A program made the position numbers and the translations under genes. Source: Candidatus Peribacter sp. (lineage in GTDB: Bacteria; Patescibacteriota; Gracilibacteria; Peribacterales; Peribacteraceae). From it: a stretch of 64,000 nt of DNA. This document shows, one piece after another, positions 2,722-42,342 of the stretch (positions are counted from its first letter, which is position 1; each line of letters starts with the position of its first letter). Location: assembly GCA_030647195.1 (NCBI GenBank), contig JAUSKD010000003.1, forward strand, positions 28,724 through 92,723. The letters are read 5' to 3'. The notes below the pieces were generated by a model. That model searched no databases, was not told the origin of the DNA, and saw only the letters and a program-made list of their open reading frames with translations.

Positions 2722-3235
2722 GTGTGAGGGTGCGAGGCGCTTCGGCCAGTCCCGCATGTGCGGGACGGGGCTACTCCATAAAGGATAGTCTCTGAACCTT
2801 CCGAGATTCTTCATTCAGAATCAGGGCTTGGCTGCTGATTGCCCTTCGCTTTCGCGGGAGGGTTTCCAGCAATTCACCTCGTTATCGACCCAGGATTTCC
2901 CTGGGAAGCTGCGTTACACCACCATGCAATTCCTGATGACAGTTTGTACAAACGAGGACGCACTTGTCCGCCTCAGTTTTCACCTTGTTCCATGAGCGGG
3001 TTAATCCTCGTGCGGAAAGGCCGAATTCTTTCTGCTTTCCATCAATATGATGAAGGGCGAATGCGCCAATATATTTGTGGTATCCGCAAATGACGCACTT
3101 GCCTCCTTTGTACGCGACAACCATTTCACGAAGTTTCCTTCGTCGCTTGGCTACCGCTTTCTTCAGGTACACCGCACGGTCGGCGTAGGTACGTTTCTCT
3201 GGCATACACATGTGAGTATACCATGAGATGTGTTC
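2670..3235 (-). mobile_element. Group I intron (ribozyme core plus homing-endonuclease ORF) inside tRNA-Asn
   Basis: The 5' exon ends in U and the intron ends in G. In RNA sense the classical core elements occur in order: P AAUUGCUGGAAACC, Q AAUCAGCAGC, R GUUCAGAGACUAUC, S AUGAUAUAGUCC, with P/Q and R/S complementary. GAAA-capped hairpins are present (CGC-GAAA-GCG; CCUUCUG-GAAA-CAGAAGG just before the 3' splice site). Confidence 0.8.
2882..3211 (-). CDS. HNH-family homing endonuclease encoded in the intron
   Basis: 109-aa ORF on the tRNA strand that starts 24 nt after the 5' splice site and stops 10 nt before the P element. Motifs are CVICGY...ALHHIDGK...VLVCTNCHQELH, i.e. two CxxC pairs plus an HH..N..H signature. 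Confidence 0.75.
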   Translation of the reverse strand: MCMPEKRTYADRAVYLKKAVAKRRRKLREMVVAYKGGKCVICGYHKYIGAFALHHIDGKQKEFGLSARGLTRSWNKVKTEADKCVLVCTNCHQELHGGVTQLPREILGR

Positions 3236-3369
3236 ACAGCCGATTGCTCTACCATTGAGCTACAGGGGACCGATGCATGCAAAGAACAGGACAGTCACTG
3301 ATGTACGACTGGCGTCAGTATACGGATACCCGGCTGAGAAGAAATAGTGAAAAACATCGGATATTCTTC

Positions 3370-4638: not shown

Positions 4639-4682
4639 CGCATGGCAGGATAGCGTTGCAGGGGATGTTCGTACAGCTGTTG

Positions 4683-4806
4683 AAGGATTCAGGATTTCAG
4701 GGAACCAGGATTGCATGGAAGATCTCAAGAAAACAGGATCTCAAGAGGACAATCGACCCTTTGGATCCTGATTCCTTCCCTGAATTCCTGCATTCCTGGA
4801 ACCCTG
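4683..4806. repeat. Imperfect inverted arrays of GGATTNCA / CAGGAAT-type 7-8-mers
   Basis: Left arm AAGGATTCAGGATTTCAGGGAACCAGGATTGCATGG (4683-4718). Right arm GGATCCTGATTCCTTCCCTGAATTCCTGCATTCCTGGAACCCTG (4763-4806) is its approximate reverse complement. The spacer holds the direct repeat GATCTCAAGA x2. Confidence 0.5.
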
Positions 4807-4832
4807 TCTCCTTCCTTTCACTGCAATCTCGT

Positions 4833-18944: not shown

Positions 18945-19346
18945 GGGGATGATTTGGTTTCGACAGCGTGATACTGGTGGAGTTTCGCTTCTGTTCGGGA
19001 GGGCAACGGTTCCCGCACCCACTGTTGCAAACAATATCTGCCACTGCAGATGTACCGGCGGTCTTTAAGAAGGCGTTCGCGAACTTCACGTTTGCGCCCG
19101 CATTCGCACTGGCTGCCTAAGTCCGTTTCATGCGGACACGTCTCACTCTCGATTCTCGCTACAGGGATGAGGCGTAATCAGCGAGGCAGCGTCGCCGTCT
19201 GATGTCGCGGTGACGCGGTCAACCAGGCATCATCCCTCGCACCTTTCTCTGCTCTTCTCTTAGGGCTGCGAGTACGAGAAGTCCATGACAGCACAAGCAG
19301 CTTCGCTACACGTTGGACCCGGGTTCGATTCCCGGCATCTCCACCA
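18945..19346 (+). ncRNA. ssrA: tmRNA (transfer-messenger RNA)
   Basis: The 5' end GGGGATGATTTGGTTTCGACAGCG and the 3' end GGACCCGGGTTCGATTCCCGGCATCTCCACCA form the tRNA-Ala-like domain. The internal tag frame ends ...FAPAFALAA-TAA (stop at 19118-19120). Confidence 0.9.
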
Positions 19347-19542: not shown

Positions 19543-20619
19543 ATGATTACAATTACACCTCTCAAAGACAGGAGAATGAATTGGATGAGATCAATTGATC
19601 GCTTAGAAGGCGCTCAAGAGACATACCATGAAAATTGTGAATTGAAGTCTGATTGCTGGATTCCAGGAATTGGAGAATATGCCAATGGTTTCCTGCTCTG
19701 TGGAGGAATTGCAGAGATGAATAAGGATGGTGGCCAGCATTCGTACATTTTGAAGTTGGAATATGCGACTGGGATGGAAGAAACAATAGAAGCTGGAAGA
19801 CGCGGGATTGACCTCTGGCCTTCCAGGGAAATCATTTCTTTGATGTCCCTGCATTTGCATGCAAGGTTTTTCTTATCTTCAACTACAACAGACACCCTTA
19901 CAAGCTCGGGAATTCCGTCACGGACACATCATAAATTTATACAGGGATCATATAAGTTTGACGACGATTCTTTTGTTCCTGATTTGTTTAAGGACAAAGG
20001 CAATCTAACAACGCTTGCTAGTTTTTTAGATGAAATTAGGAATATTCCAGACAGATATCACCGAGATTTAATTTATGCGATCTATAACTACGCTGATGCT
20101 ATTCGCTGGATAGGTTTCGATGAAAAAATCACGTACTTAAAATTGATAATTGCGGTAGAAATTTTGGCAGGTGATGACGAAGAAATTCATGATGAACTGA
20201 ATCTTGAACTCCAAAATAACAAATCTAGAATTCCTGAAGAACTTGCAAAAGAGGTATCGGAATTTCAAAAACAGAGGCGAATCAAAAAGAGCTTCATACA
20301 ATTCATTATGGATCACAAAACAGATTTTCTAGGTTCTCGTAAAAAGACGGATATGTATGTAACAGATGAAAACATTGATAAATATTTAGCGGCTATCTAC
20401 AACAGCAGATCAAATTACATCCACGAAGGTAGACCAATGACAATTAGCTCTCTGAGTCATTATGATTGGGATGTTAGCCCGGGGAAGACAATTCGAGGCA
20501 CTTTGGAGACAGGTGAAAACGAGCAAATTCCCACTGCAGTATTTTTTGAATCATTAGTTCGGCACTGCTTGTTACAATATATCGAAAAGCTGAGGATCCC
20601 TAAACCTACAAAGATTTAA
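19543..20619 (+). CDS. HEPN-like (Rx4H) protein, ApeA/Abi-like putative RNase
   Basis: 358 aa. The C-terminal helical region carries IYNSRSNYIHEG, an R-x4-H motif at 20407-20424. The 3' end overlaps the res 3' end by 14 nt in convergent orientation. TATAAT at 19528-19533 lies 9 nt before the ATG. Confidence 0.4.
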   Translation: MITITPLKDRRMNWMRSIDRLEGAQETYHENCELKSDCWIPGIGEYANGFLLCGGIAEMNKDGGQHSYILKLEYATGMEETIEAGRRGIDLWPSREIISLMSLHLHARFFLSSTTTDTLTSSGIPSRTHHKFIQGSYKFDDDSFVPDLFKDKGNLTTLASFLDEIRNIPDRYHRDLIYAIYNYADAIRWIGFDEKITYLKLIIAVEILAGDDEEIHDELNLELQNNKSRIPEELAKEVSEFQKQRRIKKSFIQFIMDHKTDFLGSRKKTDMYVTDENIDKYLAAIYNSRSNYIHEGRPMTISSLSHYDWDVSPGKTIRGTLETGENEQIPTAVFFESLVRHCLLQYIEKLRIPKPTKI

Positions 20620-22870
20620 GTTCAGATAGCACGTCTTCAGTGTTCTTATTGTGGACAAGAAAGAAATGTAGCTTTCCCTTGCCCAATTTTGCCCACATTT
20701 CACCAATCTTTACTTTGTAAGCTGTATCTTCATTACTTATGCGATCTTCACCTTTCCACTCCAAAGCCACCACAGCCCCTTTCTTGGTTACAGCGATGAA
20801 GTCAGGATAGAACTTGTTTTTCTGCCATCCCTGAATGTAAAAAGGGTCTTTTTTCTCCCTGCTTCTGATCCAAAAATCAATGTTTGGGAGCGTATCTAAA
20901 TCCAAGCGTTCGACAAAGGAGAGCTCTTCTTTGTTAAGCTTATCAATTTTCTTATAGTAATTTTTATTGAAGTCTTGTGGTACTTCTTCAGCGATTGAAA
21001 TTGTTTTTGGAAAGGAATCAAAAGTCTTCGTTGTGATAGCTCCCTTTTTAGCAAGCTCATCAAAGCGTTTCCTGGCGTACTCTTGAAGAACTCCATTTAT
21101 CACTTTATCTAGCTTGTCCATGAGCAAATAGCGATTGACCGAAAGTTCAGAAAGAGAGTGTTTCTTGAGCTGTAAATCGACGGCCTTATCTATAAATTTT
21201 ACCTTGTCGCTCTTTTCAAGAATCGTGAAGCGCATTTTTTTATCAAGCCATTGTACTAACTCCCCCTTTGTGAAATTTTTGTCCTTATAAGTAAGTTTTA
21301 ACATCTGCTGTGCGCCTTTTATCCATTTGTCTTCTTTAATATCAATAACTGCACGACCATCGTTGTCATAATGAATTTCAAAATTAAAATTAGCATCTTC
21401 CTTAGCAAGCTCAAAATCTTCGCCGATCAAATCCTCAAAAGACAGTTTGTCACCATTGAGGCTGACCATCGGTGCTGCAAAATCTTTCTTTACAGCCCTC
21501 TCAATCTCTAATTCGTATTTCTGCTCCTTTTGAGAGGAGTTTAAAAGATCGAATCTACTATAACCATTCGTTTCAAGTCCTGAGATAATCTGCGTGGCAG
21601 CTTCGTTAAAGTTCCTCGCAGAAGCGAAAATATAACATCGGTTCAGATCCTCGTTACTCTTTCTCTTGGCATAAGGCATACGGATAATGCGACCAATAAT
21701 CTGCTCAACTGCAATCTTTGCGCCCACATTAGCAACGGAAATTAGAACATAGGCAAACGAGCAGTCCCAGCCCTCCGCAAGTGCGCTTACGGTAATTATG
21801 TAACGAACTTTGCATTTTTTACTAAAAAGATCGATTCCCTCTAGATCATTTCTTTCAGAAGTTTTGATAGCGATCTCATCTTCGGAAATTTTTGCGTTCA
21901 GCAAATATTCCTTAATCTGCTCAACCGTGACGCTTGGACTAGTTTTGCTTTTTGGCTGCGCTTGTATCAGCGCTATAGGACGGATGTATTCACCTTTAAG
22001 TTTTTTAGCTTCCTTTTCAAGTTCATTTCGCTTTTCAACACCTCTCGCAACAGAATTATTCCATTGTGTTGCACTCTCAAGAACAATAGGAATTTTCACC
22101 ATTTGCTCTTCTTTGAGTTCCGATGCAGAAATATCAACAAGGATATTGCTACCACCTCTCGGCGTAGCAGTGTATTCAATGACAAATGATGGATTAAGCT
22201 CTTTTAGAAAATCTATTGAAAGTTGGGTCTTTGTCTTATGACCTTCGTCAATAACTACCAATGGATTACTCATTCTAACTACATTTGCCAGTGAATTGAT
22301 GACTGTTTTTTGTTCATCCAATTCTAGCCCGTCGCTTTCCGTAATATTTTCGAAGTGGCTTAGTAAGGCACCATTTTCCTGATAAACTTTATATTTATTC
22401 TGCAAAGTCTTTTCTTTGCGGAAGGCATCCAGACTCGACACGATAACGCAGAGGTTATCTGTAATGTCCTCCTTACGGATGCGAAGAGCTTCTTCATTTG
22501 AAAAAACACGAACATTATTTTGGAAGGCTTCATCTAAAATCTGTCGATGCCAGTCGTTCCTATCTTTAAATTTTCTAAGGGTTTGTGTTTTGATCGCTTC
22601 AGACGGGACAAACCACATAATAATGCCGCGTTCCATTTTGTGCTTCAAAAGCTTTCCCATGATTTCATTCACTGCATTACAGCCAACGAGAGTCTTGCCG
22701 CCTCCGGTAGGAATCTTGATGCACACAAAGGGTACATCTCCGAAAAATTCGGCATTGTATGGTTGATTGGTTATCCCCATAAAAGCATATTTTGTTCCTA
22801 CGCGTTCCAGTTCCCTCAAGTAGTCCTTGAGGATATCGAGAGCCTTCTGCTGGTAGTTTTTTAAAATCAT
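20606..22870 (-). CDS. res: Type III restriction enzyme, Res subunit (SF2 helicase plus PD-(D/E)xK nuclease)
   Basis: Walker A KIPTGGGKT, DEAH-like VIDEGHK, motif VI QIIGRIIRMP and the C-terminal nuclease motif FYPDFIAV...ALEWKG. Confidence 0.9.
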   Translation of the reverse strand: MILKNYQQKALDILKDYLRELERVGTKYAFMGITNQPYNAEFFGDVPFVCIKIPTGGGKTLVGCNAVNEIMGKLLKHKMERGIIMWFVPSEAIKTQTLRKFKDRNDWHRQILDEAFQNNVRVFSNEEALRIRKEDITDNLCVIVSSLDAFRKEKTLQNKYKVYQENGALLSHFENITESDGLELDEQKTVINSLANVVRMSNPLVVIDEGHKTKTQLSIDFLKELNPSFVIEYTATPRGGSNILVDISASELKEEQMVKIPIVLESATQWNNSVARGVEKRNELEKEAKKLKGEYIRPIALIQAQPKSKTSPSVTVEQIKEYLLNAKISEDEIAIKTSERNDLEGIDLFSKKCKVRYIITVSALAEGWDCSFAYVLISVANVGAKIAVEQIIGRIIRMPYAKRKSNEDLNRCYIFASARNFNEAATQIISGLETNGYSRFDLLNSSQKEQKYELEIERAVKKDFAAPMVSLNGDKLSFEDLIGEDFELAKEDANFNFEIHYDNDGRAVIDIKEDKWIKGAQQMLKLTYKDKNFTKGELVQWLDKKMRFTILEKSDKVKFIDKAVDLQLKKHSLSELSVNRYLLMDKLDKVINGVLQEYARKRFDELAKKGAITTKTFDSFPKTISIAEEVPQDFNKNYYKKIDKLNKEELSFVERLDLDTLPNIDFWIRSREKKDPFYIQGWQKNKFYPDFIAVTKKGAVVALEWKGEDRISNEDTAYKVKIGEMWAKLGKGKLHFFLVHNKNTEDVLSELKSL

Positions 22871-22879
22871 AAAAATGGG

Positions 22880-24433
22880 TTAATAGACTTTTACTTCGTA
22901 TGGAATCTGCTTAAAAAGCACATTGTATTCGTCCAGTATTTTCTCATCAATCGTACAATTATCTGCATATACAATCTTTTTAGCTTCAGTCTTTCTCAAC
23001 TTTTTGAGGAAGCCTTTGTCTAAAATATTTTTACCCTTCTCTTTATAGATTAAATAATACTCAGTCTCATTGAGTTCACCGATGAAGTTTGTATCCACCT
23101 TAGTACGATCAATATTCGTCTGAGTTTCGGTGAAATAGATATAAGTGGCAAACTGATTAAAGTCACAAGATTCTTCTATTTGCCCATTTTCATTAAAAAG
23201 AGGTTTATCTAACTCGCAGTATTCAAAGCCATCTTTAAAATTGAATTTATCGATGGCCGTTTTTATTCTTTTAGCAGTGATATCTTTTGCAATCGCATCT
23301 TCCATTTCAATAAGAATAAACTTCCGCTTTCCACCATCCTCTTTATTTAACTGAAGTACTGCATGCCCTGTCGTACCAGAACCAGCAAAGGAATCTAAGA
23401 TTAGATCATCAGGGCCTGTGGAAATTTGCAATATGCGATTAATTAGTCTGATTGGCTTGGGTGTATCAAATAAATTTGCCCCAAGAATAGAGTCGATTTC
23501 TTTCTTGGCTTCATCGGTATGTCCAGCATCTTCATGCGGCCACCAGTTATGAGGAGTCATCCCTTGTCGCACCTCCGATAAAAATAATTTTAAGGCAGGC
23601 ACGGTATTATTACCTTTCACTCCCCACCACAAACGATTTTCTTGTATGTGTTTTTTATGAGCGTCTAACTCATATTTCCATGCTTTCTTTGTATTACGAA
23701 TAACCTGTTTTGTATTTGGATTAACAATTTCATAGCATAAATTTGGTCTTTTATCTGGGGATACTTGATTTAGATAATCAACAGCTTTCCATGGTCCACG
23801 AGGATCATTGTCTGGATTTGAGTAACGCTCGATTGATTCTGCAGTTCTTGGAAGAAGGCTATTTTGAAAATTTTCACTCTTAGAATAAACAAGGATATAA
23901 TCAATTATTGTCGCAATTCCTTTAAAATTATTACTCACACTATATTTTCTTTGCCATGTAATACATGCGCGAAAATTTTGTATGCCGAATATTTCATCCA
24001 TTATATGTTTCAATGAAAAGAGCTCGGCATCATCAATGCTTATAAAAATTGCACCATCGTCTCTTAGTAACTGTTTTAACAAGGAAAGCCTTGGATACAT
24101 CATGCAAAGCCATTTATCGTGTCGACACAAATCTTCTGATTCTCTCCCAACAACCTTGCCAAGCCATTTCTTTATTTTTGGAGAATTAACTTTGTCGTTA
24201 TAAACCCAGCTTTCATTGCCAGTATTGTAGGGAGGATCAATGTAGACACATTTCACTTTACCGCCGTAATAGGGCATCAGAGCTTTTAGTGCCTCAAGAT
24301 TATCCCCATGAATAATTAAGTTCTGTGAATCTTTGCCAACTGAGGCTGACTTGACCTTTTTAAGCAAACGAAAGGGAACCTCTTTGTCATGGTTCATTAC
24401 TGCTTCTTTGCCAATCCAGTTAAGAGTGGGCAT
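22880..24433 (-). CDS. mod: Type III R-M DNA methyltransferase, Mod subunit (beta-class amino-MTase)
   Basis: Motif IV VYIDPPYNTG lies N-terminal to motif I DSFAGSGTTGHA. The stop is 9 nt upstream of the res start, giving the typical mod-res order. Confidence 0.9.
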   Translation of the reverse strand: MPTLNWIGKEAVMNHDKEVPFRLLKKVKSASVGKDSQNLIIHGDNLEALKALMPYYGGKVKCVYIDPPYNTGNESWVYNDKVNSPKIKKWLGKVVGRESEDLCRHDKWLCMMYPRLSLLKQLLRDDGAIFISIDDAELFSLKHIMDEIFGIQNFRACITWQRKYSVSNNFKGIATIIDYILVYSKSENFQNSLLPRTAESIERYSNPDNDPRGPWKAVDYLNQVSPDKRPNLCYEIVNPNTKQVIRNTKKAWKYELDAHKKHIQENRLWWGVKGNNTVPALKLFLSEVRQGMTPHNWWPHEDAGHTDEAKKEIDSILGANLFDTPKPIRLINRILQISTGPDDLILDSFAGSGTTGHAVLQLNKEDGGKRKFILIEMEDAIAKDITAKRIKTAIDKFNFKDGFEYCELDKPLFNENGQIEESCDFNQFATYIYFTETQTNIDRTKVDTNFIGELNETEYYLIYKEKGKNILDKGFLKKLRKTEAKKIVYADNCTIDEKILDEYNVLFKQIPYEVKVY

Positions 24434-31512: not shown

Positions 31513-31905
31513 TTATCGGATGATTTCCTTCATCACCCAGTTCGCAAAGCCGATCGCGGCGGCGACCACGATCCAGCCCCAGACTCCGCCGAAGATATCG
31601 AGCCCCACGATGGCGGGGTCCATCCTGAGGACGAGAAGGTGCACCAGCCACACGAAGAGGCCGTTCACGACGATCACGGCGAGAATGGTGGCGAAGAGCT
31701 TCAGGGGCAGTGTCAGGATGGCGAGGATCGGACGGACGAGGAGATTCAGGAGGGTCAGAAGCGCGCCGACGATGACAATCGCCCGCCACCCGCCGGTGAG
31801 CGCGAAGTACTGATCGAGGTACGTGGCCATCGCCCAGACGAGGGCGACATTCAGGATTGCCTTGATGGTGATTTTGAGCGGGAGGGAACCCGAAGAGTCG
31901 GCCAT
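31513..31905 (-). CDS. Phage-holin-4_2/DUF360 family membrane protein
   Basis: 130 aa with four hydrophobic helices; the pattern LLNLLVRPILAILTLPL is typical of the family. Confidence 0.55.
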   Translation of the reverse strand: MADSSGSLPLKITIKAILNVALVWAMATYLDQYFALTGGWRAIVIVGALLTLLNLLVRPILAILTLPLKLFATILAVIVVNGLFVWLVHLLVLRMDPAIVGLDIFGGVWGWIVVAAAIGFANWVMKEIIR

Positions 31906-31917
31906 AGCGGGGGCAGT

Positions 31918-34900
31918 CTACCTCTTCTTGAGTCTCACCGTCACGTGCGATCCGGAAATCTCGACAGGAACCGCTGGACCGTCATTCTCCTGCAGGACGG
32001 CATGCGTCTCCTGCGCAATCACGTTGCCGTATTCCTGCATGACGTCTTGCAGGCCCTCGATCGCGAGGATGATTTCATCCAGAAAGTGCAGCCCGGCTTC
32101 CTTGCGGATTTTTTGCACCGCACGGACGAGGTCGCGGGCCAGCCCCTCCCGTTTCAGCGCTTCAGAGACGGTCGTATCCATGCTCACCACCACGCCTTTC
32201 TCCACGGCGATATCTTCACCTTCTCTGCTGCGATAGGTGATGCTGACTTCATCGGGGGCGAGCACCTCATCCAAAATGAGCACGGTCCCGTCCTCCCGCA
32301 CAGTGAAGTCTCCGGTTTTTCCGGCCCTGATGATCTCCTGCACGCGCGCACCGAGCCGCGGTCCCACCTTGCGGGCGTCCACCTGCGCGATGCGCTCCGC
32401 GAGCTCGCCGGGGTCAGGGGCAAATTCCAGGTCTTTCACGTTCAGTTCATTTTTGAGCAGGTTGCGGTCTTCTTCGGTGAGTGTGATGCGGGCGAGGGCG
32501 GGTGGCAGGGCGACCACGGCGCGCGCGAGTGGTTGGCGCACTTTGAGTTTCTTTCCTGCGCGGATGCCGTGGCCGAGCGAGACGATCAGTTTGAGCAGAC
32601 GATGGCGGGCGATGAGTGCCTCCTCTTCATGTGTCAGCTCCTTGCAATCCGGCCAATCGGTCAGATGCACCGAGCCGTGATCCCCGGGCACGAGGTTGAT
32701 GTAGATCGCGTCGGTGATGAATGGGCAGAACGGGGCAAGCGTCTGGCAGACGGTGAGCAGAACATCGTAGAGCGTTGCGAGTGCTTCCGTCTGTTCGTCT
32801 TCGTGTGTCGACAGCTCGGCGGAGGGACTCGTGTCCTCTTCATCCACCGCGCCCTTGCCCGCGAAGCGGCGTCGCGAGAGCCGCACGTACCAGTTGGTGA
32901 GCGCATCAATCGTTTCGTGGATTTCCGCGCTGGCGGCCGAGAGGTCGTAGCGGTCGAGTTCCCGCGTGATGCGGTTCACGAGGTCCTGCACCTCGGCACG
33001 GATGTAGCGGTCCAGGGGATGATTACTGTGTCGGCGGCTTTCCACCGGTTCGAATTTTGCCGCATTGGCGTAGGTCACGAAGAAGCTGTAGACGTTCCAG
33101 AGCGGGAGCAAAACGGCGCGCACGGTTTCCGAAACGAGTGTCTCTGAGAAGCGCAGGTCTTCGCCCCGGACCGCAGGGGAGGCCATGAGCGTGAAGCGCA
33201 CGGCGTCCGCCCCGTGGCGGTGCACGACCTCGGTCGGCTCCGGATAATTCTTGAGACGCTTGCTCATCTTTTTGCCATCCTCGGCCAGCACGATGCCATT
33301 GACGATGCAGTTCATAAATGCGGGTTTCTTATAGAGGGCCGTCGACAGGATCATGAGGGTGTAGAACCATCCGCGCGTCTGGTCCATGCCCTCGGCGATG
33401 AAGTCCGCGGGGAAGCCGGGGGGGAGCTGAGAGCTTTGAGCTTTGAGCTTTGAGCCCGCTTTGTTTCTGCTGAAGGCGAAAGGGAAGTGGCTCTGCGCAT
33501 AGGGCATGGAGCCGGATTCGAACCAGCAGTCGAGCACCTCCGGAATACGTTTCATGAGTGCGGGCAGCTTGAGATCGATCGCCCCGGCGTTCTTGGGAGC
33601 GGTTGCAGCTGCCTCCGCCAGGGACAAATTTTCGACCAGTGCCTGCAGGCATTTGATCGGGCCCCCGTGGCAGGCCACGAGCACGCGTTTGCCCGGATAT
33701 TCGGCGCGGATGCGCTGCAGTGCTCCTTCCAGTCGCTGCAAAAAAGCCTCGAAACTCTCGCCGTTCGGGGGAGTCAGAGGGGAGAGGCCGGGGCTTGCGA
33801 TCACGCCGTTCGTCAGAATGGTCCTGAAGTTCTCTTCGGGTTTGCCGGTCCAATCGCCCGTATCGCGTTCATTCAATTCCTTCCACTTGGCCGCGTGCGG
33901 GACCTTCAATGCCGCGCTGAGGATCTCGGCCGTTTCGACCGCGCGCTTCAGGTCCGAAGAAATGATCACGTCGAATTTCTGCTTCTTCAGTTTCTTCGCA
34001 AGCGCATGCACCTGCGCTCTTCCTGTCTCATTGAGCAGCGAATCGGTGTTCCCGCCATTGACCTTGTCCTGCTTGTTCAGATCCGTCTCGCCATGACGGA
34101 CCAGGGTGAGCTGCGTGTCACCCTTCTCTGCAGACGCTCCCCACGTGATGTCATCCACGATGTGCTTGTGCAGGTCGAGCTCACGCTGCGTGCGATGATC
34201 CCAGAAGAAGGAGAGCGGCTCGGCGTACCGGGGGTACGGCCGGTGATTCAATTTCAGCGGATCTTCGCCGGTGAAGAAGTGCCGAATGTTCTGCACGGGA
34301 TCGGCGTGCGTGACGATGACGATGTGGTCGCCGCGGTGGCGGGGAAGGATTTCCGTGAGGAATGCGCTGATGCGCTCATGGACGGCGCCGAAGGTCTCCA
34401 TCCCCGGAAAGTGGTAGATGCTCTCGGGCGCATTGGTCTCGAGCTTGTGCGCGCGTCTTGCCTTCACGAAGGTCAGATCAGAAAAATCGACGGTCTTGCC
34501 CTCGTAGTCCCCGAAGGTGACTTCGTGCAGGCGCTCATCCACGATCAGGGGCGCACCGGTCGCCTTGGCGATCACGGCCGCGGTTTCCTTCGTCCGGTCT
34601 AAGGGCGAACAGTAGATGGCGGAGATTTCCCCGACATTCAGAAAAGCTGCGGCAGACGCGGCCTGCGTCTTGCCTTGGTCCGTCAGGTGCGAGCCCGGAC
34701 ACTTGCCCTGATAGATCGGAATGAGGTTTCCTTCACTCTCGCCGTGCCGGAGGACCGTCACTTTGGTGAAGCGGATCTTCTGATGCGCCATAAGGTCGTC
34801 CCGGCTTTGGATCACCTCCACATCCTCTCCGATCGTTTCTGCCCTTTCCCCCTTTTCTTTCCTTTCTGTCCTCCAAATGGGCAGGGGGGTTCCCCAGTAG

Positions 34901-36312
34901 CGGTTGCGGCTGATGGCCCAGTCGCGGGCCCCCTCCAGCCACTTGCCGAACCGGCCGTCGCGCACGTGCGCGGGGACCCACTCCGTTTCCGCATTCGCCC
35001 TGAGCATGTCCTCCTTGATCTTCGTGACGTTCACGAACCACGAGCTTGTGGCGTAGTTGAGCAGCGGCGTCTCGCACCGCCAGCAGTGAGGATAGCTGTG
35101 CCGATAGGTCTCTTTGCGCCAGACGAACCCTTTTTTGCGGGAGTCCTCGATGATCTGTTTCTCTCCGTCTTCCACGTGCATGCCTGCGTAGGGGCCGGCC
35201 TCGGGCCCGAAGTGGCCGTTCATCTGCACGTCCATGACGATGGGCAGCTTGTTCTTCTTCGCCGCCTCCATATCGATCTCGCCGTACGAGCCGTTGATGG
35301 TCACGATGCCCGTTCCCTCAGACGGATCCACGTAATCCGCGGCGAAGATGTGGTAGACATGGGGGTTCTTTTTGACTTCCGGAATCTCCCCGTACCAGGG
35401 GGCGATGTGTTCGTAGGCCTTGCCGACCAGTTTTTTGCCGGGGATTTCATCGACGACTTCGTACTGCTCCGTTCCTTTCATCACGTCGGCAACGCGGCCT
35501 TTGGCCATGATGAGGTGTTCATCCCCTGCACGGACCTTCACGTACGTGGCATCCGGCCGGATCGAGAGACCCATCGTGGAGAGCGTGCTCCACGGCGTGG
35601 TGGTCCAGGCGAGCACGAAAGTGTTCTTCTCTCCCGCCAGCCTGAACTTCCACGTGACGGCGGTGTCATCGATATCCTTGTAGCCCTGCGTCACCTCGAA
35701 GTTACTGAGCGGCGTTTCGCAACGGGGGCAGACCTGCATGGCTTTCCGTCCCTCGTAGACGAGACCTTTCGCGTGGAGCTGGTTGAAGACCCACCAGATC
35801 GATTCCATGTACTCGGGGTCCATGGTGCGGTAGTCGTTGTCCATGTCCACCCAGCGGCCCATGCGTTCCACCACGGTCCGCCACTCTTTGGTGTAGCGCT
35901 GCACCGAGCTGCAGCAGAGTGCGTTGAACGTGTCCACGCCCATCTCTTCGATCTGCTTGTGGGAGGTGATGTTGTGCTCCTTCTCGATCAGGTTTTCGAC
36001 GGGGAGTCCGTGGCAGTCCCAGCCGAACCGGCGCTCCACGTAGTGGCCACGCATCGTCTGGTAGCGTGGGATCACGTCCTTGATCGTGCCGGCGAGCAGG
36101 TGCCCGTAGTGCGGCAGGCCCGTGGCGAAGGGTGGGCCGTCGTAGAAAGAGAACGTCTCGCTCCTGCCGCCGACGGGCCCGTCCAGAATATCGCCCGTCC
36201 CTGCCGAGCGAAGCCGAATGCTCCTCTTAAAAACATCTTCTTCCTGCCAGTAGCGGAGGATGCCTTCTTCCAGTTCGGGCAGCCGCTGTTTGGGATCCAC
36301 GGGGTCGAACAT
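31918..36312 (-). CDS. ileS: Isoleucyl-tRNA synthetase (eukaryote-like type 2) with two inserted histidine-phosphatase domains
   Basis: HIGH motif PHYGHLL, CWRCETPL, WGTPLPIW, CWFESGSMPYA and KMSKS motif KKMSKRL. The length is 1464 aa, against roughly 1050 that I would expect. The insertions carry VLRHGESEGN and LVRHGETDLN. Confidence 0.9.
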   Translation of the reverse strand: MFDPVDPKQRLPELEEGILRYWQEEDVFKRSIRLRSAGTGDILDGPVGGRSETFSFYDGPPFATGLPHYGHLLAGTIKDVIPRYQTMRGHYVERRFGWDCHGLPVENLIEKEHNITSHKQIEEMGVDTFNALCCSSVQRYTKEWRTVVERMGRWVDMDNDYRTMDPEYMESIWWVFNQLHAKGLVYEGRKAMQVCPRCETPLSNFEVTQGYKDIDDTAVTWKFRLAGEKNTFVLAWTTTPWSTLSTMGLSIRPDATYVKVRAGDEHLIMAKGRVADVMKGTEQYEVVDEIPGKKLVGKAYEHIAPWYGEIPEVKKNPHVYHIFAADYVDPSEGTGIVTINGSYGEIDMEAAKKNKLPIVMDVQMNGHFGPEAGPYAGMHVEDGEKQIIEDSRKKGFVWRKETYRHSYPHCWRCETPLLNYATSSWFVNVTKIKEDMLRANAETEWVPAHVRDGRFGKWLEGARDWAISRNRYWGTPLPIWRTERKEKGERAETIGEDVEVIQSRDDLMAHQKIRFTKVTVLRHGESEGNLIPIYQGKCPGSHLTDQGKTQAASAAAFLNVGEISAIYCSPLDRTKETAAVIAKATGAPLIVDERLHEVTFGDYEGKTVDFSDLTFVKARRAHKLETNAPESIYHFPGMETFGAVHERISAFLTEILPRHRGDHIVIVTHADPVQNIRHFFTGEDPLKLNHRPYPRYAEPLSFFWDHRTQRELDLHKHIVDDITWGASAEKGDTQLTLVRHGETDLNKQDKVNGGNTDSLLNETGRAQVHALAKKLKKQKFDVIISSDLKRAVETAEILSAALKVPHAAKWKELNERDTGDWTGKPEENFRTILTNGVIASPGLSPLTPPNGESFEAFLQRLEGALQRIRAEYPGKRVLVACHGGPIKCLQALVENLSLAEAAATAPKNAGAIDLKLPALMKRIPEVLDCWFESGSMPYAQSHFPFAFSRNKAGSKLKAQSSQLPPGFPADFIAEGMDQTRGWFYTLMILSTALYKKPAFMNCIVNGIVLAEDGKKMSKRLKNYPEPTEVVHRHGADAVRFTLMASPAVRGEDLRFSETLVSETVRAVLLPLWNVYSFFVTYANAAKFEPVESRRHSNHPLDRYIRAEVQDLVNRITRELDRYDLSAASAEIHETIDALTNWYVRLSRRRFAGKGAVDEEDTSPSAELSTHEDEQTEALATLYDVLLTVCQTLAPFCPFITDAIYINLVPGDHGSVHLTDWPDCKELTHEEEALIARHRLLKLIVSLGHGIRAGKKLKVRQPLARAVVALPPALARITLTEEDRNLLKNELNVKDLEFAPDPGELAERIAQVDARKVGPRLGARVQEIIRAGKTGDFTVREDGTVLILDEVLAPDEVSITYRSREGEDIAVEKGVVVSMDTTVSEALKREGLARDLVRAVQKIRKEAGLHFLDEIILAIEGLQDVMQEYGNVIAQETHAVLQENDGPAVPVEISGSHVTVRLKKR

Positions 36313-39555: not shown

Positions 39556-42342
39556 TCAGGTCTGCTGGATTGTTTGCTGTGGCAGTGTGGAATGTTTGAC
39601 GATGAGCGGCAGAGCCGCTCCCAGTGCGACGATACAGCCGGCGGCCAGTACGGGTTGCGCGACGTTGCCCATCAGCAGCGCCTGCCCGACCAGCGTCGTG
39701 AAGATCAGCAGGAAGGAATAGCGGAGCACGAAGTCGATTTCCCGGTGCGAGAGCAGGTAGTAGTAGATGTAGTAGGGCAAGCCGGCGAAGAACACGCTGA
39801 AGAGGATCATGCGCGCGATTGTGGGTGCGTTGTACTGCAGCAGGTGCGCGGCCGGCAGTAGGGGCAGGACGAAGAGCGCGCAGAAGAAGGAGAGGATGAA
39901 GAAGTACTGTGCGGCGCGCACGTCCACATGCTCCAGCCGCTTGTACCGTTCGCTCGCGATCGAGAACGCCGTAAAGCCCGTGACGGCGACGGCGGTGAAG
40001 ACGATGCCGCTCAGGGTCCAGGAGGGCGTGGAGGAGATGAGCAGGAAGATGCCGATGGCGAAGCACGCCCATGCGGCGAGCAGCATCTTCCATCGTTTGC
40101 GGTTGACGATGGTGGTGAGCAGGAAGCCCGAAGCGGTCATGGGGATGGTGTAGTGCGAGGGGAGGGTCTGTTCCAGGGAGGCATACGTGGAGAGGGCCAC
40201 GAAGAACAGGGCGATGACCGAGAGCCAGAGTGTGCGGCTGCGGAGTGGCAGCGAGGCATAGCGGAGCGGGGAGTGCAGCCGTGCCCAGATTAATAAGAGG
40301 CCGCTCATCACGAGCAGAGAGAAGAAGCGGATGATCGTGAGGTCCAAGGCGAAGATGCTGTGAGACTTCAGGAGCAGGTGGGCGAAGATAGGATCGAATC
40401 CCCACAAGGCGAAAATCAGGATGACCGTGAGGACCTGTCGCACCACAGAGTATGTGGGGACGACGCGCACATTCTGCGCACCCACGGCGCGTAATTCGGT
40501 GGCAATGAATTGCTGCTCTTCCGTCGAGAGAGGGAGACGCAGGGCGACCCTGACGTGCTGGTTGCTGGTAGGCAGAACCTGCACGTCGCCCAGTCCGACG
40601 CTGTATCGTTCGGCGAGAAAGAGGAAGCGCGTGAGCAGGTCATTGAGGGGCATCGTTGGAAGAGAGAACTGCACTGTACAGTTCGTCTTCTGCGGCGAGA
40701 GATTCCCGCGCGATCCGGAGGACCGGAAGATGGCGGCGATGGCGACCGAGGGCTGCAGGTGGCCATCGGCAACGGCAATGAAGGCGCCATCCAGAGAGGT
40801 GTAGCCCAGTGTGCGGATGCCCTTGAGCAGGCTTTCTTCTTTGAATTCCTTCAGATAGCCCCGCGCCTGTTTGGTCATGGCTTCCTGCAGAATCCGCCTG
40901 CCGCCCTCGATTTTCTGCTGGCGTGATGCGGACCCCAGGAGGGTGCGGATGGAGGCGATGGCCACTCCCGTATGCACCCACTCCAGCCACTCGCGCGTCA
41001 CCGTGGGGTGACTGGCCAGCTCCAGCGAGAGCGAGGCGCCATCGGAGAGCGGAGAGAAGAAGGAAGTGTCTCTGCCGTTGATTTTAATTGATTTCGTTTT
41101 GAGCGCTTTTTCTTTGTAGAGGTAGAACGCGCCGTCCAGGACGGTGGCCCCGGTGGGGAGCTGGATGGTGGTGTCATCCGGTCCGTAGATGAAGATGGAT
41201 TTGCCGAGGATGTCGCTCTGCAAGCTGTCCCAGAATTCCTGGCTCTTGTCCGCCGTATCCTTGGAGAGCGGAGCGATGCGCTCGGTCCAGGGCAGGTACT
41301 CCATGATGCCGATTGCCTTCTTGTCGAAACAGAGGGTCGCGATGCCCAGTTGGGCGTAGGCCTGCATTTCCTTCGTGCGGATCTTGCAGCGCACGCGCGT
41401 GCCGTTGCCGAGGATGATGGTCGTGTGCAAACCGCGGTAGCCGTTGATGGCGGGGGCGTTGATGAAATCTTTGAACGAGAGGATTTCGTGCTGCCATTTC
41501 TGATGGAGGACGCCGACGGTGGCATAGCACTGGGGGATGGAGGGACAGACGAACGCGAAGGTCACGTCCGAGCGGCCGGTCTTGGCCTCGGTTTCAGAGC
41601 CGAGCCTGGCACGGAGGTGATCCCACGATTTGCGCTCCACGCGCACGATCACGTCAGAGGGCAGCGGCTCCGGCTCGCCGTACAGTTCCTCGCGCATGGC
41701 ATCCACCACCGTTGCGGCCTGACGTTCGTTCAGGTCGCGGAGCTGCGTCAGGAGGGCGAAGGTCTCGGGTTCCAGAATGGCGATGCAGAGCGCTTCCAGT
41801 TCGTCGCTCAGGTCATGCATGCTCATCCGCTCCGCGATCTTCACATAGATGTCCGTCGTCTCCTGCGCGAAGGAGATTTGCCGTTCCTTCGAAAGGAATT
41901 CGACCGTGCGCATGTTGTGCAGACGATCGGCCAGCTTGATCACCATGATCCGCACGTCTTCCTGCATCAGGAGCACCATTTTGCGCAGGGATTCGATCTC
42001 TTCGTCGAGGGTGGGATGCTGCCGCATGTCCTCGTCGTCGAGTTTGGTCATCCCTTCGATTAATGCCGCAGCCGTGTGGCCGAAGCGCTGTTCGGTGTGT
42101 TCGAGGGTGAGATCGGTGTCTTCAATGACGTCGTGGAGGAGCGCGGCGACGAGGGCATCCGCTCCGGCTCCCATTTCCGCGATGAGGAGGGCGACGGCGA
42201 TGGGGTGCGAGGCGTAGGGTTCCCCGGATTTGCGCACCTGCCCTTCATGGGCGCTGATACACAGATCGAACGCCCGGTGCACACGATCGCTGTCTGCAGG
42301 GGAAAGGTGCCGGAGGAAGGATTGGAATTCCTGCCACTCCAT
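39556..42342 (-). CDS. rel: Bifunctional (p)ppGpp synthetase/hydrolase (Rel/SpoT) fused to a C-terminal 10-TM EamA/DMT-like domain
   Basis: HD domain HPIAVALL...LLHDVIEDT, synthetase INGYRGLHTTI, TGS IFIYGPDDTTIQLPTGATVLDGAF and an ACT-like region. These are followed by 296 aa with ten hydrophobic helices (39556-40446). Confidence 0.85.
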   Translation of the reverse strand: MEWQEFQSFLRHLSPADSDRVHRAFDLCISAHEGQVRKSGEPYASHPIAVALLIAEMGAGADALVAALLHDVIEDTDLTLEHTEQRFGHTAAALIEGMTKLDDEDMRQHPTLDEEIESLRKMVLLMQEDVRIMVIKLADRLHNMRTVEFLSKERQISFAQETTDIYVKIAERMSMHDLSDELEALCIAILEPETFALLTQLRDLNERQAATVVDAMREELYGEPEPLPSDVIVRVERKSWDHLRARLGSETEAKTGRSDVTFAFVCPSIPQCYATVGVLHQKWQHEILSFKDFINAPAINGYRGLHTTIILGNGTRVRCKIRTKEMQAYAQLGIATLCFDKKAIGIMEYLPWTERIAPLSKDTADKSQEFWDSLQSDILGKSIFIYGPDDTTIQLPTGATVLDGAFYLYKEKALKTKSIKINGRDTSFFSPLSDGASLSLELASHPTVTREWLEWVHTGVAIASIRTLLGSASRQQKIEGGRRILQEAMTKQARGYLKEFKEESLLKGIRTLGYTSLDGAFIAVADGHLQPSVAIAAIFRSSGSRGNLSPQKTNCTVQFSLPTMPLNDLLTRFLFLAERYSVGLGDVQVLPTSNQHVRVALRLPLSTEEQQFIATELRAVGAQNVRVVPTYSVVRQVLTVILIFALWGFDPIFAHLLLKSHSIFALDLTIIRFFSLLVMSGLLLIWARLHSPLRYASLPLRSRTLWLSVIALFFVALSTYASLEQTLPSHYTIPMTASGFLLTTIVNRKRWKMLLAAWACFAIGIFLLISSTPSWTLSGIVFTAVAVTGFTAFSIASERYKRLEHVDVRAAQYFFILSFFCALFVLPLLPAAHLLQYNAPTIARMILFSVFFAGLPYYIYYYLLSHREIDFVLRYSFLLIFTTLVGQALLMGNVAQPVLAAGCIVALGAALPLIVKHSTLPQQTIQQT

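What the first reader, a model, noticed from the sequence alone, without database searches (positions are those of the whole stretch)
33568..34773. Isoleucyl-tRNA synthetase with two histidine-phosphatase (PGAM-like) domains inserted into its catalytic core
ileS encodes 1464 aa. Between WGTPLPIW (aa 473-480) and CWFESGSMPYA (aa 929-939) there are two paralogous ~185-aa modules, aa ~514-705 (34198-34773) and aa ~733-915 (33568-34116). Each has an intact RHGE(S/T)xxN phosphate pocket (VLRHGESEGN, with the R codon at 34747-34749; LVRHGETDLN, with the R codon at 34096-34098). Each also has the distal catalytic His context (VIVTHADP; VACHGGPI). They flank the normal IleRS segment ELDLHKHIVDDITW, so these are two separate in-frame insertions rather than a terminal fusion or an intein. 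I am not aware of an aaRS carrying phosphatase or mutase domains. It could link aminoacylation to a phospho-metabolite or to alarmone/nucleotide dephosphorylation.
Basis: partly seen in the sequence, partly recalled or inferred. Interest (0 to 1): 0.75.

Follow-up and report, generated by a model that had tools for sequence, protein, structure and literature searches.

The report
Isoleucyl-tRNA synthetase carrying nested phosphatase domains
The isoleucyl-tRNA synthetase of this Peribacteria (Candidate Phyla Radiation) bacterium really has two intact histidine-phosphatase enzymes spliced into a surface hairpin of its catalytic core; the architecture is conserved and under selection across the radiation, and I found no paper describing it.

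Summary
Confirmed. The ORF at 31918-36312 (-) encodes a 1464-aa type-2 IleRS with HIGH, KMSKS, editing, anticodon-binding and DUF5915 parts all present. Two complete His_Phos_1 domains (aa 514-705 and 733-915) sit in two adjacent loops of a native hairpin between WGTPLPIW and CWFESG.

It is not an assembly artefact. 65 GTDB species genomes of Peribacteria carry the same uninterrupted gene, with one, two or three phosphatase domains. An exhaustive search finds 132 clusters (50% identity) of CPR IleRS with an embedded His_Phos, at four or more different insertion sites.

The catalytic Arg-His...Arg...Glu...His set is essentially invariant even though the domains average 29% identity. dN/dS of both inserts (0.11-0.22) matches the synthetase core.

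By sequence and fold the domains are PhoE/PspA/CobC-type phosphatases, not true mutases. The two share only 25% identity, so this is not a recent duplication.

Sister CPR IleRSs also embed NUDIX, GNAT, serine-hydrolase or P-loop-kinase-like domains, so IleRS is a general host for accessory enzymes in this radiation.

The substrate and physiological role are unknown. Ten full-text literature searches found no description. Verdict: a real, conserved, apparently undescribed variant of a known enzyme; interest 0.72.

The parts
31918..36312 (-). ileS CDS (1464 aa plus stop): a type-2 isoleucyl-tRNA synthetase hosting two nested phosphatase domains
   Evidence: ORF. TIGR00392 775.8 bits (cutoff 621.4). 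Best PDB relatives are human cytoplasmic IleRS 9w01 (707 bits), P. megaterium 8c8v (675.8 bits) and T. thermophilus 1ile, against 247-267 bits for 8c9e and S. aureus 1ffy.
36100..36114 (-). HIGH signature (PHYGH, aa 67-71) of the synthetase active site
   Evidence: Motif search.
35587..35607 (-). CP1 editing-domain Thr-rich motif WTTTPWS (aa 236-242)
   Evidence: Conserved as WTTTPW[TS] in 53 related genes.
34873..34896 (-). WGTPLPIW strand (aa 473-480), the last core element before the inserts
34774..34872 (-). First piece of the native connective hairpin (aa 481-513, ...EDVEVIQSRDDLMAHQKI), which precedes insertion site A
   Evidence: Alignment with uninserted IleRS P0104, P0109, P0112, P0113, P0116 and P0117.
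34198..34773 (-). Insert 1 (D1, aa 514-705): a complete His_Phos_1 domain at site A. Catalytic residues are Arg522, His523, Arg573, Glu597 and His669.
   Evidence: Pfam and NCBIfam. PDB best hits are PspA 4ij5 and PhoE 1ebb. AF2 pLDDT is above 90. dN/dS is 0.11-0.22. Mean pairwise identity is 0.66 in 42 full-length Peribacteria genes.
34741..34749 (-). RHG motif of D1 (Arg522-His523-Gly524); His523 is the predicted phospho-acceptor nucleophile
34117..34197 (-). Middle piece of the native hairpin (aa 706-732, HRTQRELDLHKHIVDDITWGASAEKGD) between the two inserts
   Evidence: The DLH[KR] landmark is present in inserted and uninserted relatives.
33568..34116 (-). Insert 2 (D2, aa 733-915): a complete His_Phos_1 domain at site B. 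Catalytic residues are Arg739, His740, Arg790, Glu815 and His882.
   Evidence: AF2 pLDDT is 75-90 except in the cap loop (about aa 810-845). dN/dS is 0.11-0.21. It is 40-46% identical to free-standing 193-aa phosphatases.
34090..34098 (-). RHG motif of D2 (Arg739-His740-Gly741)
33496..33567 (-). Last piece of the native hairpin and the CWFESGSMPYA helix (aa 916-939), where the Rossmann fold resumes
33256..33270 (-). KMSKS signature (KMSKR, aa 1015-1019)
32527..33012 (-). Anticodon-binding domain (Anticodon_1, aa 1101-1262)
31924..32460 (-). C-terminal DUF5915 domain (aa 1285-1463)
31513..31905 (-). Conserved downstream neighbour: a 130-aa membrane protein (PF04020) 12 nt after ileS, probably co-transcribed. 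Context only.
   Evidence: Pfam. Present directly downstream of ileS in 56 of 65 related loci.
39556..42342 (-). Upstream relA/spoT homologue (928 aa; HD_4 plus RelA_SpoT). Context only.
   Evidence: Pfam. A homologue lies within about 6 kb upstream of ileS in 47 of 65 related loci, in either orientation.

Best explanation
This is a type-2 isoleucyl-tRNA synthetase, probably the cell's housekeeping copy. Two complete histidine-phosphatase domains of the short PhoE/PspA/CobC type are nested in two neighbouring loops (site A and site B) of a native hairpin in the second half of the Rossmann fold.

Shown: the synthetase parts are all intact. Each insert has the full catalytic set and folds as a His_Phos domain. 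Both inserts evolve under purifying selection as strong as the synthetase core. The arrangement is conserved across Peribacteria (1-3 copies) and, with a single copy or at other sites, across much of the Candidate Phyla Radiation.

Inferred from established His_Phos chemistry: each domain is an autonomous phosphomonoesterase. His523 (D1) or His740 (D2) attacks the phosphate to form a phospho-histidine intermediate. Arg522/Arg573/His669 (D1) or Arg739/Arg790/His882 (D2) hold the phosphate. Glu597 or Glu815 acts as the general acid/base.

Inferred more weakly, and my committed guess at roughly 1 in 3: the phosphatases work on a phosphomonoester met at the synthetase, either a nucleotide-type by-product or signal, or a phosphorylated tRNA end. 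On this reading they belong to a CPR habit of tethering accessory enzymes (His_Phos, NUDIX, GNAT, serine hydrolase, P-loop kinase-like) to IleRS.

The stated confidence applies to the 'bifunctional synthetase plus active phosphatases' part, not to the substrate.
For: Architecture.

Not an artefact: 65 species genomes carry an uninterrupted gene with 1, 2 or 3 domains, and full-length NCBI proteins exist (e.g. MDD4628071.1, 1449 aa).

Breadth: more than 100 fragments from Paceibacterota, Uhrbacteria, Kaiserbacteria, Portnoybacteria, Minisyncoccia and others. There are 132 IleRS+His_Phos clusters at 50% identity in an exhaustive HMMER search, with intact single-insert proteins of 1142-1275 aa.

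Catalytic conservation: R, H, R and H are 100% conserved and E is 95% (plus D) in 139 embedded domains whose mean identity is 29%. The same holds in 92 and 118 domains.

Selection: dN/dS is 0.11-0.22 for D1, 0.11-0.21 for D2 and 0.08-0.20 for the core. D1 identity (0.66) is about that of the anticodon-binding domain (0.68) and above the editing domain (0.51).

Fold: AF2 pLDDT is above 90 for D1 and 75-90 for D2. Foldseek gives TM 0.75-0.83 and rmsd about 3 A to PspA, PhoE, CobC, HFP and GpgP.

Link to the synthetase: His_Phos recurs at four or more internal sites of IleRS. It co-occurs with NUDIX, GNAT, Ser_hydrolase and P-loop domains that keep their signature motifs, in sister IleRSs.
Against: No activity has been measured and the substrate is unknown. 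No NCBIfam equivalog cutoff is reached by either domain alone.

The closest solved relatives act on small metabolites (phosphoserine, 3-PGA, alpha-ribazole-P), not on tRNA or synthetase products.

The variety of insertion sites and copy numbers argues against a fixed geometric coupling to the aminoacylation site.

The gene neighbourhood gives no pathway clue beyond a relA/spoT homologue nearby.

Whether a second, uninserted ileS exists elsewhere in this genome could not be checked.

No model coordinates were available, so the positions of the phosphatase pockets relative to the IleRS active site are unknown.
Confidence: 0.75

Rival explanations
1. Hitch-hiking housekeeping phosphatase. The His_Phos domains carry out an ordinary metabolic dephosphorylation unrelated to aminoacylation (PhoE-like broad phosphatase, phosphoserine phosphatase, or a GpmB-like role). 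IleRS merely serves as a permissive, constitutively expressed scaffold in a gene-poor genome.
For: The closest solved and named relatives are metabolic phosphatases. D2 is 40-46% identical to free-standing 193-aa phosphatases. Many insertion sites and 1-3 copies suggest that position relative to the synthetase active site is not critical. Unrelated enzyme types are also nested in CPR IleRS.
Against: A separate gene or a terminal fusion would be simpler. The same family instead recurs at four or more internal sites of the same host, in at least 132 clusters. In the hits examined no other host protein was seen. None of the metabolic equivalog models is reached by either domain alone.
Confidence: 0.3
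2. Regulatory sensor. The domains bind, or are transiently phosphorylated by, a phospho-metabolite or alarmone-derived nucleotide and allosterically tune isoleucylation. This would couple translation to energy or stringent status.
For: The inserts lie in the catalytic domain next to the CWFESG helix. A relA/spoT homologue is nearby in 47 of 65 loci. dPGM-family enzymes form stable phospho-enzyme states (established knowledge of the family).
Against: Conservation of the full hydrolytic set, including the general acid Glu (95%), fits turnover rather than mere binding. Synteny is known only within one class and its orientation varies. There is no direct evidence.
Confidence: 0.12
3. Catalytically dead structural module. 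The inserts only enlarge or stabilise the connective hairpin or add a tRNA-binding surface.
For: The native segment is a variable region that is a Cys-rich, Zn-ribbon-like hairpin in some relatives. D2 evolves faster than the core.
Against: R, H, R and H are invariant and E/D is 99% in 139 domains averaging 29% identity. dN/dS is about 0.1-0.2. The models are complete, confident His_Phos folds.
Confidence: 0.05
4. Artefact. The gene is a chimeric mis-assembly, an intein or mobile insertion, or separate phosphatase genes mis-read as one ORF.
For: Nothing positive. The exact protein is not on record elsewhere and read coverage could not be examined.
Against: 65 independent assemblies carry the same uninterrupted frame. 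Composition is uniform across the junctions. Purifying selection acts on the inserts. The Pfam scan of the whole protein lists no intein or Hint family.
Confidence: 0.01

Closest known systems
Type-2 (eukaryote-like) isoleucyl-tRNA synthetase, e.g. T. thermophilus 1ILE, Priestia megaterium 8C8V, human IARS1 9W01
   Same: HIGH and KMSKS motifs, the CP1 editing domain, the anticodon-binding domain and the DUF5915 C-terminus. It aligns over aa 1-486 and 920-1455 with 634-708 bits.
   Different: About 41 residues of connective hairpin in human IleRS correspond to 434 residues here, holding two phosphatase domains. In this genome and 10 close relatives the editing-site GTG(I/V)VH is GTGIVT.
Short histidine phosphatases of His_Phos branch 1: Geobacillus PhoE (1H2E/1EBB), Hydrogenobacter PspA (4IJ5), CobC (6NRU/6E4B), riboflavin-pathway HFP (9MMH)
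   Same: The same fold (TM 0.75-0.83, rmsd about 3 A), the same catalytic R-H...R...E...H set and a similar size of about 185-210 aa.
   Different: Those are free-standing enzymes with defined small-molecule substrates. Here the domains are nested inside a synthetase. They score below every equivalog cutoff when taken singly, and their substrate is unknown.
NCBIfam NF040702 'isoleucine--tRNA ligase, N-acetyltransferase domain-containing' (ileS_w_GNAT)
   Same: A curated precedent for an accessory enzyme domain nested inside an IleRS (listed). GNAT-bearing CPR IleRSs were also seen here (P0486, P0494).
   Different: The guest domain is of a different family. The window protein scores 220 bits against a cutoff of 1999, so it is not a member. 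I found no NCBIfam model or paper for the His_Phos version.
Mycobacterial MutT1 (Nudix domain plus RHG histidine-phosphatase domain) and Rv2228c-type RNase H/acid phosphatase (NF005567)
   Same: His_Phos domains fused to nucleic-acid or nucleotide enzymes. A Nudix plus His_Phos pairing also occurs in some CPR IleRSs (L067, P0468). NF005567 is among the best NCBIfam hits for both inserts.
   Different: Those are terminal fusions, not nested insertions. The MutT1 C-terminal domain is SixA-like and dephosphorylates sensor histidine kinases (PMC12407098). The inserts here are PhoE/PspA-like, and both score far below the NF005567 cutoff.
The CP1 editing domain of class Ia synthetases
   Same: A hydrolytic domain inserted into the Rossmann fold of the same enzyme, which shows the fold tolerates nested catalytic modules (established knowledge; CP1 motifs seen).
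   Different: CP1 is universal in IleRS and hydrolyses mis-acylated tRNA. The His_Phos inserts are lineage-specific, sit at other loops and belong to an unrelated phosphatase fold.

Membership tests
Isoleucyl-tRNA synthetase (TIGR00392 equivalog) | Whole-protein HMM score above the curated cutoff | tested here: met
   775.8 bits against a cutoff of 621.4, matched in two stretches either side of the inserts.
Isoleucyl-tRNA synthetase (TIGR00392 equivalog) | Class I signature motifs HIGH and KMSKS | tested here: met
   PHYGH at aa 67 and KMSKR at aa 1015; GMDQTRGWF at aa 975.
Isoleucyl-tRNA synthetase (TIGR00392 equivalog) | CP1 editing domain with Thr-rich motif and GTG(I/V)VH...D | tested here: inconclusive
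   WTTTPWS is present and Asp is kept in ...YGEID. The His of GTGIVH is Thr in this genome and 10 close relatives, and His in the others. Editing competence was not assessed.
Isoleucyl-tRNA synthetase (TIGR00392 equivalog) | Charges tRNA-Ile with isoleucine | not testable with these tools
   Needs an aminoacylation assay.
Type-2 IleRS (IleRS2 / eukaryote-like) | Closer to type-2 than to type-1 enzymes, with a DUF5915-type C-terminus | tested here: met
   PDB: 8c8v 675.8 bits, human 707.6 and 1ile 634, against 8c9e 266.6 and S. aureus 1ffy 247.4 (type-1/type-2 labels of these entries are from memory). MupA and MupB models are the next-best NCBIfam hits. PF19302 scores 85.9 bits.
Histidine phosphatase superfamily branch 1 (PF00300) | Pfam HMM above the gathering score, for each insert | tested here: met
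   273 bits over two stretches against a gathering score of 21.7. Each insert alone hits several branch-1 models at E 1e-25 to 1e-33.
Histidine phosphatase superfamily branch 1 (PF00300) | RHG motif with nucleophilic His, plus a second Arg, a Glu and a distal His | tested here: met
   D1 has R522, H523, R573, E597 and H669. D2 has R739, H740, R790, E815 and H882. The set is invariant or nearly so in 139 embedded homologues.
Histidine phosphatase superfamily branch 1 (PF00300) | The alpha/beta fold of the family | tested here: met
   AF2 model (pLDDT above 90 for D1, 75-90 for D2). Foldseek TM 0.75-0.83 to PspA, PhoE and CobC.
Histidine phosphatase superfamily branch 1 (PF00300) | Phosphomonoesterase (or mutase) activity through a phospho-His intermediate | not testable with these tools
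   Needs an enzyme assay with H523A and H740A controls.
Cofactor-dependent phosphoglycerate mutase proper (TIGR01258 pgm_1) | Score above the cutoff with full-length alignment including the dPGM-specific C-terminal half | tested here: not met
   26.2 bits (D1) and 53.7 bits (D2) against a cutoff of 81.7, and only profile positions 2-97 of 245 align. Fold matches to dPGMs have rmsd 7-8 A, against about 3 A for phosphatases.
Alpha-ribazole phosphatase CobC (TIGR03162) | Equivalog score above the cutoff for a single domain | tested here: not met
   The whole protein scores 193 bits only because two domains add up. Singly they score 89.9 (D1) and 114.1 (D2) against a cutoff of 162.9.
Metal-independent phosphoserine phosphatase PspA (NF045917) | Equivalog score above the cutoff | tested here: not met
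   91.2 (D1) and 68.7 (D2) against a cutoff of 350, although PspA 4ij5 is the best solved relative of D1.
IleRS with embedded GNAT (NF040702) | Exception-model score above the cutoff, with a GNAT domain present | tested here: not met
   220.4 bits against a cutoff of 1999; no acetyltransferase family appears in the Pfam scan of the window protein.
Intein / mobile insertion | Hint/intein or homing-endonuclease domain at the insertion | tested here: not met
   The Pfam scan of the whole protein lists only tRNA-synt_1, His_Phos_1, DUF5915, Anticodon_1 and tRNA-synt_1g.

The most novel reading that the evidence does not exclude
In CPR bacteria IleRS acts as a platform for nested accessory enzymes: histidine phosphatase in at least 132 clusters, and in some lineages also NUDIX, GNAT, serine hydrolase or a P-loop kinase-like domain. 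On this reading these enzymes act on chemistry at the synthetase itself. Candidates are clearing or converting nucleotide by-products or alarmone-type nucleotides, healing or modifying the tRNA-Ile end (kinase plus phosphatase resembles end-healing enzymes), or detoxifying aminoacyl-adenylate-mimic inhibitors of IleRS. The two phosphatase domains in this window would then be a new kind of in-cis quality-control or protective activity of an aminoacyl-tRNA synthetase.
Probability: 0.2. Interest if true: 0.9.

Novelty: new variant of a known kind. Interest (0 to 1): 0.72.

Why it matters
Accretion of new domains by aminoacyl-tRNA synthetases is usually presented as a hallmark of eukaryotes (my general knowledge). 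Here some of the most gene-poor bacteria known carry the largest IleRSs (1464 aa in this window, up to about 1675 aa in relatives). These hold up to three phosphatase domains with intact catalytic residues, and other nested domains with intact signature motifs, inside the catalytic core.

If the phosphatases are coupled to aminoacylation, this would be a new class of synthetase-associated activity. It would be directly testable with one recombinant protein.

If they are hitch-hiking metabolic enzymes, there is a practical consequence. Automated annotation already labels such fragments as 'phosphoglycerate mutase', 'PhoE' or K15634, which can mislead metabolic reconstructions of CPR genomes.

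Either way it gives a natural, well-sampled system for studying domain nesting in an essential enzyme, with 132 or more clusters, 4 or more sites and 1-3 copies.

Tried and rejected
- **Assembly artefact or split genes:** rejected. 65 species genomes have the same uninterrupted frame.
- **Fragments:** all hits were 872 aa or shorter. This looked like split genes but reflects short cluster representatives, frameshifted long-read contigs (L066, L068) and in-frame TGA in a probable code-25 lineage (L067). Full-length members exist.
- **Recent tandem duplication of the two inserts:** rejected. They are 25% identical, and D2 is closer to free-standing phosphatases.
- **Number of capture events:** all-vs-all scores could not resolve it.
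- **True dPGM, CobC or PspA assignment:** rejected on curated cutoffs.
- **Intein:** no such domain.
- **RelA-IleRS fusion in L014:** the 2528-aa stop-free frame is a spurious antisense frame over a divergently oriented relA.
- **Exact-sequence look-up of the window protein:** found nothing.
- **D2-only protein search:** returned only free-standing proteins and did not list the embedded homologues, a limit of word seeding.
- **Literature:** ten full-text searches found no description of IleRS with phosphatase, Nudix or GNAT inserts. Only the MutT1 and ItaT papers gave context.
- **Structure model:** no coordinates were returned, so distances from the phosphatase pockets to the IleRS active site could not be measured.
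Full report
**1. The observation**

The window has a single uninterrupted ORF at 31918..36312 on the minus strand, encoding 1464 aa. Pfam finds tRNA-synt_1 (E 1.8e-124), His_Phos_1 in two stretches (273 bits, E 1.7e-81), Anticodon_1 and DUF5915. The NCBIfam ileS equivalog TIGR00392 scores 775.8 bits against a cutoff of 621.4, matched in two blocks on either side of the inserts.

These are WGTPLPIW at aa 473, CWFESG at aa 929, Arg522 at 34747-34749, Arg739 at 34096-34098, His669 and His882. Base composition is even across the gene.

Against solved structures the protein aligns over aa 51-486 and 920-1455 with human cytoplasmic IleRS. About 41 residues of the human enzyme correspond to 434 residues here. 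The best matches are human IARS1, P. megaterium 8C8V and T. thermophilus 1ILE, which I recall as type-2 enzymes. Entries 8C9E and S. aureus 1FFY score far lower.

**2. Where exactly the inserts sit**

Uninserted relatives have a short connective hairpin between the WGTPLPIW strand and the CWFESG helix. An example is WGTPLPIWRNEETGETVCVGSRAELAQLSGCQVDDLHKHFVDEVEIPSKSGGASLKRVPEVLDCWFESG.

In the window all three pieces of this hairpin are kept: ...EDVEVIQSRDDLMAHQKI | D1 | HRTQRELDLHKHIVDDITWGASAEKGD | D2 | LPALMKRIPEVLDCWFESG. So there are two separate insertions:
- Site A lies before the DLHK element.
- Site B lies in the loop after it.

In some relatives the hairpin is Cys-rich and looks like a Zn ribbon. 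Here the cysteines are gone.

**3. What the inserts are**

Each insert on its own hits many branch-1 histidine-phosphatase models at E 1e-25 to 1e-33. Neither reaches any equivalog cutoff:

| Model | D1 (bits) | D2 (bits) | Cutoff |
|---|---|---|---|
| CobC TIGR03162 | 89.9 | 114.1 | 162.9 |
| PspA NF045917 | 91.2 | 68.7 | 350 |
| dPGM TIGR01258 | 26.2 | 53.7 | 81.7 |

For dPGM only the N-terminal half of the profile aligns.

The closest solved sequences are Hydrogenobacter PspA and Geobacillus PhoE for D1, and PhoE, CobC and fructose-2,6-bisphosphatase for D2.

An AlphaFold2 model of aa 441-960 was built with a 94-sequence alignment. It gives pLDDT above 90 for D1 and 75-90 for D2, except for D2's cap loop; pTM is 0.70. 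Foldseek places the model with PspA, PhoE, CobC, the riboflavin-pathway HFP and GpgP at TM 0.75-0.83 and rmsd about 3 A. True dPGMs fit at rmsd 7-8 A.

The inserts are therefore phosphatase-type members rather than mutases.

D1 and D2 are only 25% identical. D2 is 40-46% identical to free-standing 193-aa phosphatases. The pair is not a recent duplication. All-vs-all comparison could not settle how many capture events there were.

**4. Real, conserved and selected**

A scan of GTDB species genomes with the insert region alone returned 65 loci. All were Peribacteria/Peregrinibacteria, apart from a few labelled only 'Patescibacteria group bacterium' and one contig binned as Kiritimatiellales. The closest are two Candidatus Peribacteraceae MAGs at 82-85% identity.

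The gene is one continuous frame in all of them:
- About 50 have the A+B pair.
- 7 have only site A (L056-L062).
- 3 have three domains (L005, L007, L008; ORFs of about 1675 aa). The extra middle domain is D2-like.

The catalytic R-H...R...E...H set is intact in 117 of 118 domains.

Pairwise dN/dS against five relatives is 0.11-0.22 for D1, 0.11-0.21 for D2 and 0.08-0.20 for the core.

Across 42 full-length Peribacteria genes, mean pairwise identity is:

| Region | Mean pairwise identity |
|---|---|
| Rossmann parts | 0.76-0.81 |
| Anticodon-binding domain | 0.68 |
| D1 | 0.66 |
| CP1 editing domain | 0.51 |
| D2 | 0.43 |

**5. Beyond Peribacteria**

A protein search with the insert region plus flanks found more than 100 IleRS fragments with His_Phos_1. 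Sources named them as Paceibacterota, Uhrbacteria, Kaiserbacteria, Portnoybacteria, Colwellbacteria, Minisyncoccia and others.

These hits were fragments for technical reasons: short cluster representatives, frameshifted contigs and in-frame TGA.

An exhaustive HMMER search of 1.84 billion representatives gave 133 proteins at E <= 1e-30. Of the 142 newly fetched representatives among the best 150, 132 are IleRS with an embedded His_Phos. These include many intact single-insert proteins of 1142-1275 aa.

The domain occurs at four sites:
- Site A, before the DLHK element.
- Site B, in the loop after it.
- Site D, between the CWFESG helix and the GxDQTRGWF motif.
- Site C, about 75 aa after KMSKS.

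The combinations seen are A, C, D, AB, AC, BD and DC.

In 139 embedded domains averaging 29% identity (minimum 16%), Arg, His, Arg and His are 100% conserved. The Glu is 95% conserved, plus Asp. This search has no word seeding, so it removes the sampling-bias caveat on the earlier counts.

**6. A wider pattern**

Some CPR IleRSs that carry His_Phos also embed other enzyme domains, each with its signature motif intact:
- NUDIX with an intact Nudix box at the entry of CP1 (L067, P0468, P0250, P0260, P0265).
- GNAT acetyltransferases inside CP1 and at site D (P0494, P0486).
- An alpha/beta serine hydrolase with GHSLG at site D (P0452).
- A P-loop kinase-like domain (AAA_18/AAA_33, GACGAGKT) at site D (P0454).

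NCBIfam already holds an exception model for 'IleRS, N-acetyltransferase domain-containing' (NF040702). I saw none for the phosphatase version.

**7. Context**

The neighbours are ordinary: SLH proteins, a PF04020 membrane protein 12 nt downstream of ileS, an M20 peptidase, a 928-aa RelA/SpoT homologue, a peroxiredoxin and UvrA.

The PF04020 gene follows ileS in 56 of 65 related loci. A relA/spoT homologue lies upstream in 47 of 65, though in either orientation. In Paceibacteria-like contigs ileS instead follows argS and a nucleotide-metabolism cluster. No pathway assignment follows from this.

**8. How it most likely works**

Shown: an intact synthetase, and two complete phosphatase domains with intact catalytic sets, nested in loops and under purifying selection across a deep radiation.

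Inferred from the established chemistry of the family: each domain hydrolyses a phosphomonoester through a phospho-histidine on His523 or His740.

Inferred more weakly: repeated nesting of this and other small hydrolase or transferase domains in IleRS suggests the activity is useful at the synthetase. The candidates are nucleotide-type by-products or signals, a phosphorylated tRNA end, or adenylate-mimic inhibitors. I put this at about one in three.

Against that, the many sites and copy numbers, and the closest relatives being metabolic phosphatases, fit a hitch-hiking housekeeping phosphatase almost as well (about 0.3). A sensor role (about 0.12) and a purely structural role (about 0.05) are less likely. 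An artefact is effectively excluded.

**9. Comparison with what is known, and novelty**

The host is a member of type-2 IleRS, and the guests are members of His_Phos branch 1. Both memberships were tested here. The combination is not described in any paper found by ten full-text searches.

Public databases hold the proteins only as 'class I tRNA ligase family protein', 'isoleucyl-tRNA synthetase' or even 'broad specificity phosphatase PhoE'.

Known fusions of His_Phos with nucleic-acid or nucleotide enzymes are terminal fusions and involve different subtypes. Examples are MutT1, whose RHG domain dephosphorylates sensor kinases (PMC12407098), and the RNase H/acid phosphatase model NF005567.

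I rate this a new variant of a known kind. It is surprising for synthetase specialists because extensive domain accretion occurs here in minimal-genome bacteria. It is directly testable with one recombinant protein.

Noticed in passing
window 2597-3271 (-); intron 2672-3237: A tRNA-Thr(UGU) gene is interrupted after U33 of its anticodon loop by a 566-nt group I intron (Rfam RF00028, 85 bits). The intron carries an HNH-like endonuclease ORF. ARAGORN misses the gene until the intron is removed in silico. A serine recombinase ORF (1018-2721, +) abuts it.
   Followed up: partly
L005, L007, L008 (ileS ORFs, e.g. L005 4429-9453): Three Peribacteria species have three His_Phos domains in IleRS (about 1675 aa). 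The extra middle domain is D2-like (43-53% identity), which suggests a further duplication or capture at site B.
   Followed up: partly
L067 6207-10460 (NCBI GCA_964540725.1); also P0468, P0250, P0260, P0265: This IleRS has a NUDIX domain with an intact Nudix box at the entry of CP1, plus a His_Phos at site C. The gene has two in-frame TGA codons, and a neighbouring NTPase gene (4288-4839) has one too. This 58.5% GC genome therefore probably reads TGA as a sense codon (code 25 or 4).
   Followed up: partly
P0452, P0486, P0494, P0454 (representatives): Other enzyme domains are nested in CPR IleRS alongside His_Phos: an alpha/beta serine hydrolase (GHSLG), GNAT acetyltransferases (inside CP1 and at site D), and a P-loop kinase-like AAA_18/AAA_33 domain (GACGAGKT). 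The region between CWFESG and GxDQTRGWF looks like an insertion hot spot.
   Followed up: partly
window 35299-35301 (aa Thr338 of IleRS): The editing-site motif GTG(I/V)VH is GTGIVT in this genome and 10 close relatives, while the other Peribacteria keep His. The effect on editing specificity is unknown.
   Followed up: no
window 39556-42342 (-) and 31513-31905 (-): A 928-aa RelA/SpoT homologue lies upstream of ileS in 47 of 65 related loci, in variable orientation. A PF04020 membrane protein lies immediately downstream in 56 of 65. The linkage is conserved within Peribacteria only.
   Followed up: partly
window 18945-19346 (+); 7542-9347 (-); 12379-13911 (-); 20606-24433 (-): A tmRNA (tag ATADVPAVFKKAFANFTFAPAFALAA), an AlaRS of only 601 aa, a PEPcase_2-family PEP carboxylase, and an adjacent ResIII helicase and N6_N4 DNA methylase pair (possible type III restriction-modification).
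   Followed up: no
L054 (JAIPIN010000037.1): A contig binned as Kiritimatiellales carries a Peribacteria-type IleRS with His_Phos (65% identity to D1). This is probably a mis-binned CPR contig. Fragments labelled Methylomirabilis (P0021) and Nanoarchaeota (P0061) are likewise on contigs under 2 kb.
   Followed up: no
L014 1351-8934: A 2528-aa stop-free frame upstream of ileS looked like a RelA-IleRS fusion. It is a spurious antisense frame over a divergently oriented relA in high-GC DNA.
   Followed up: yes
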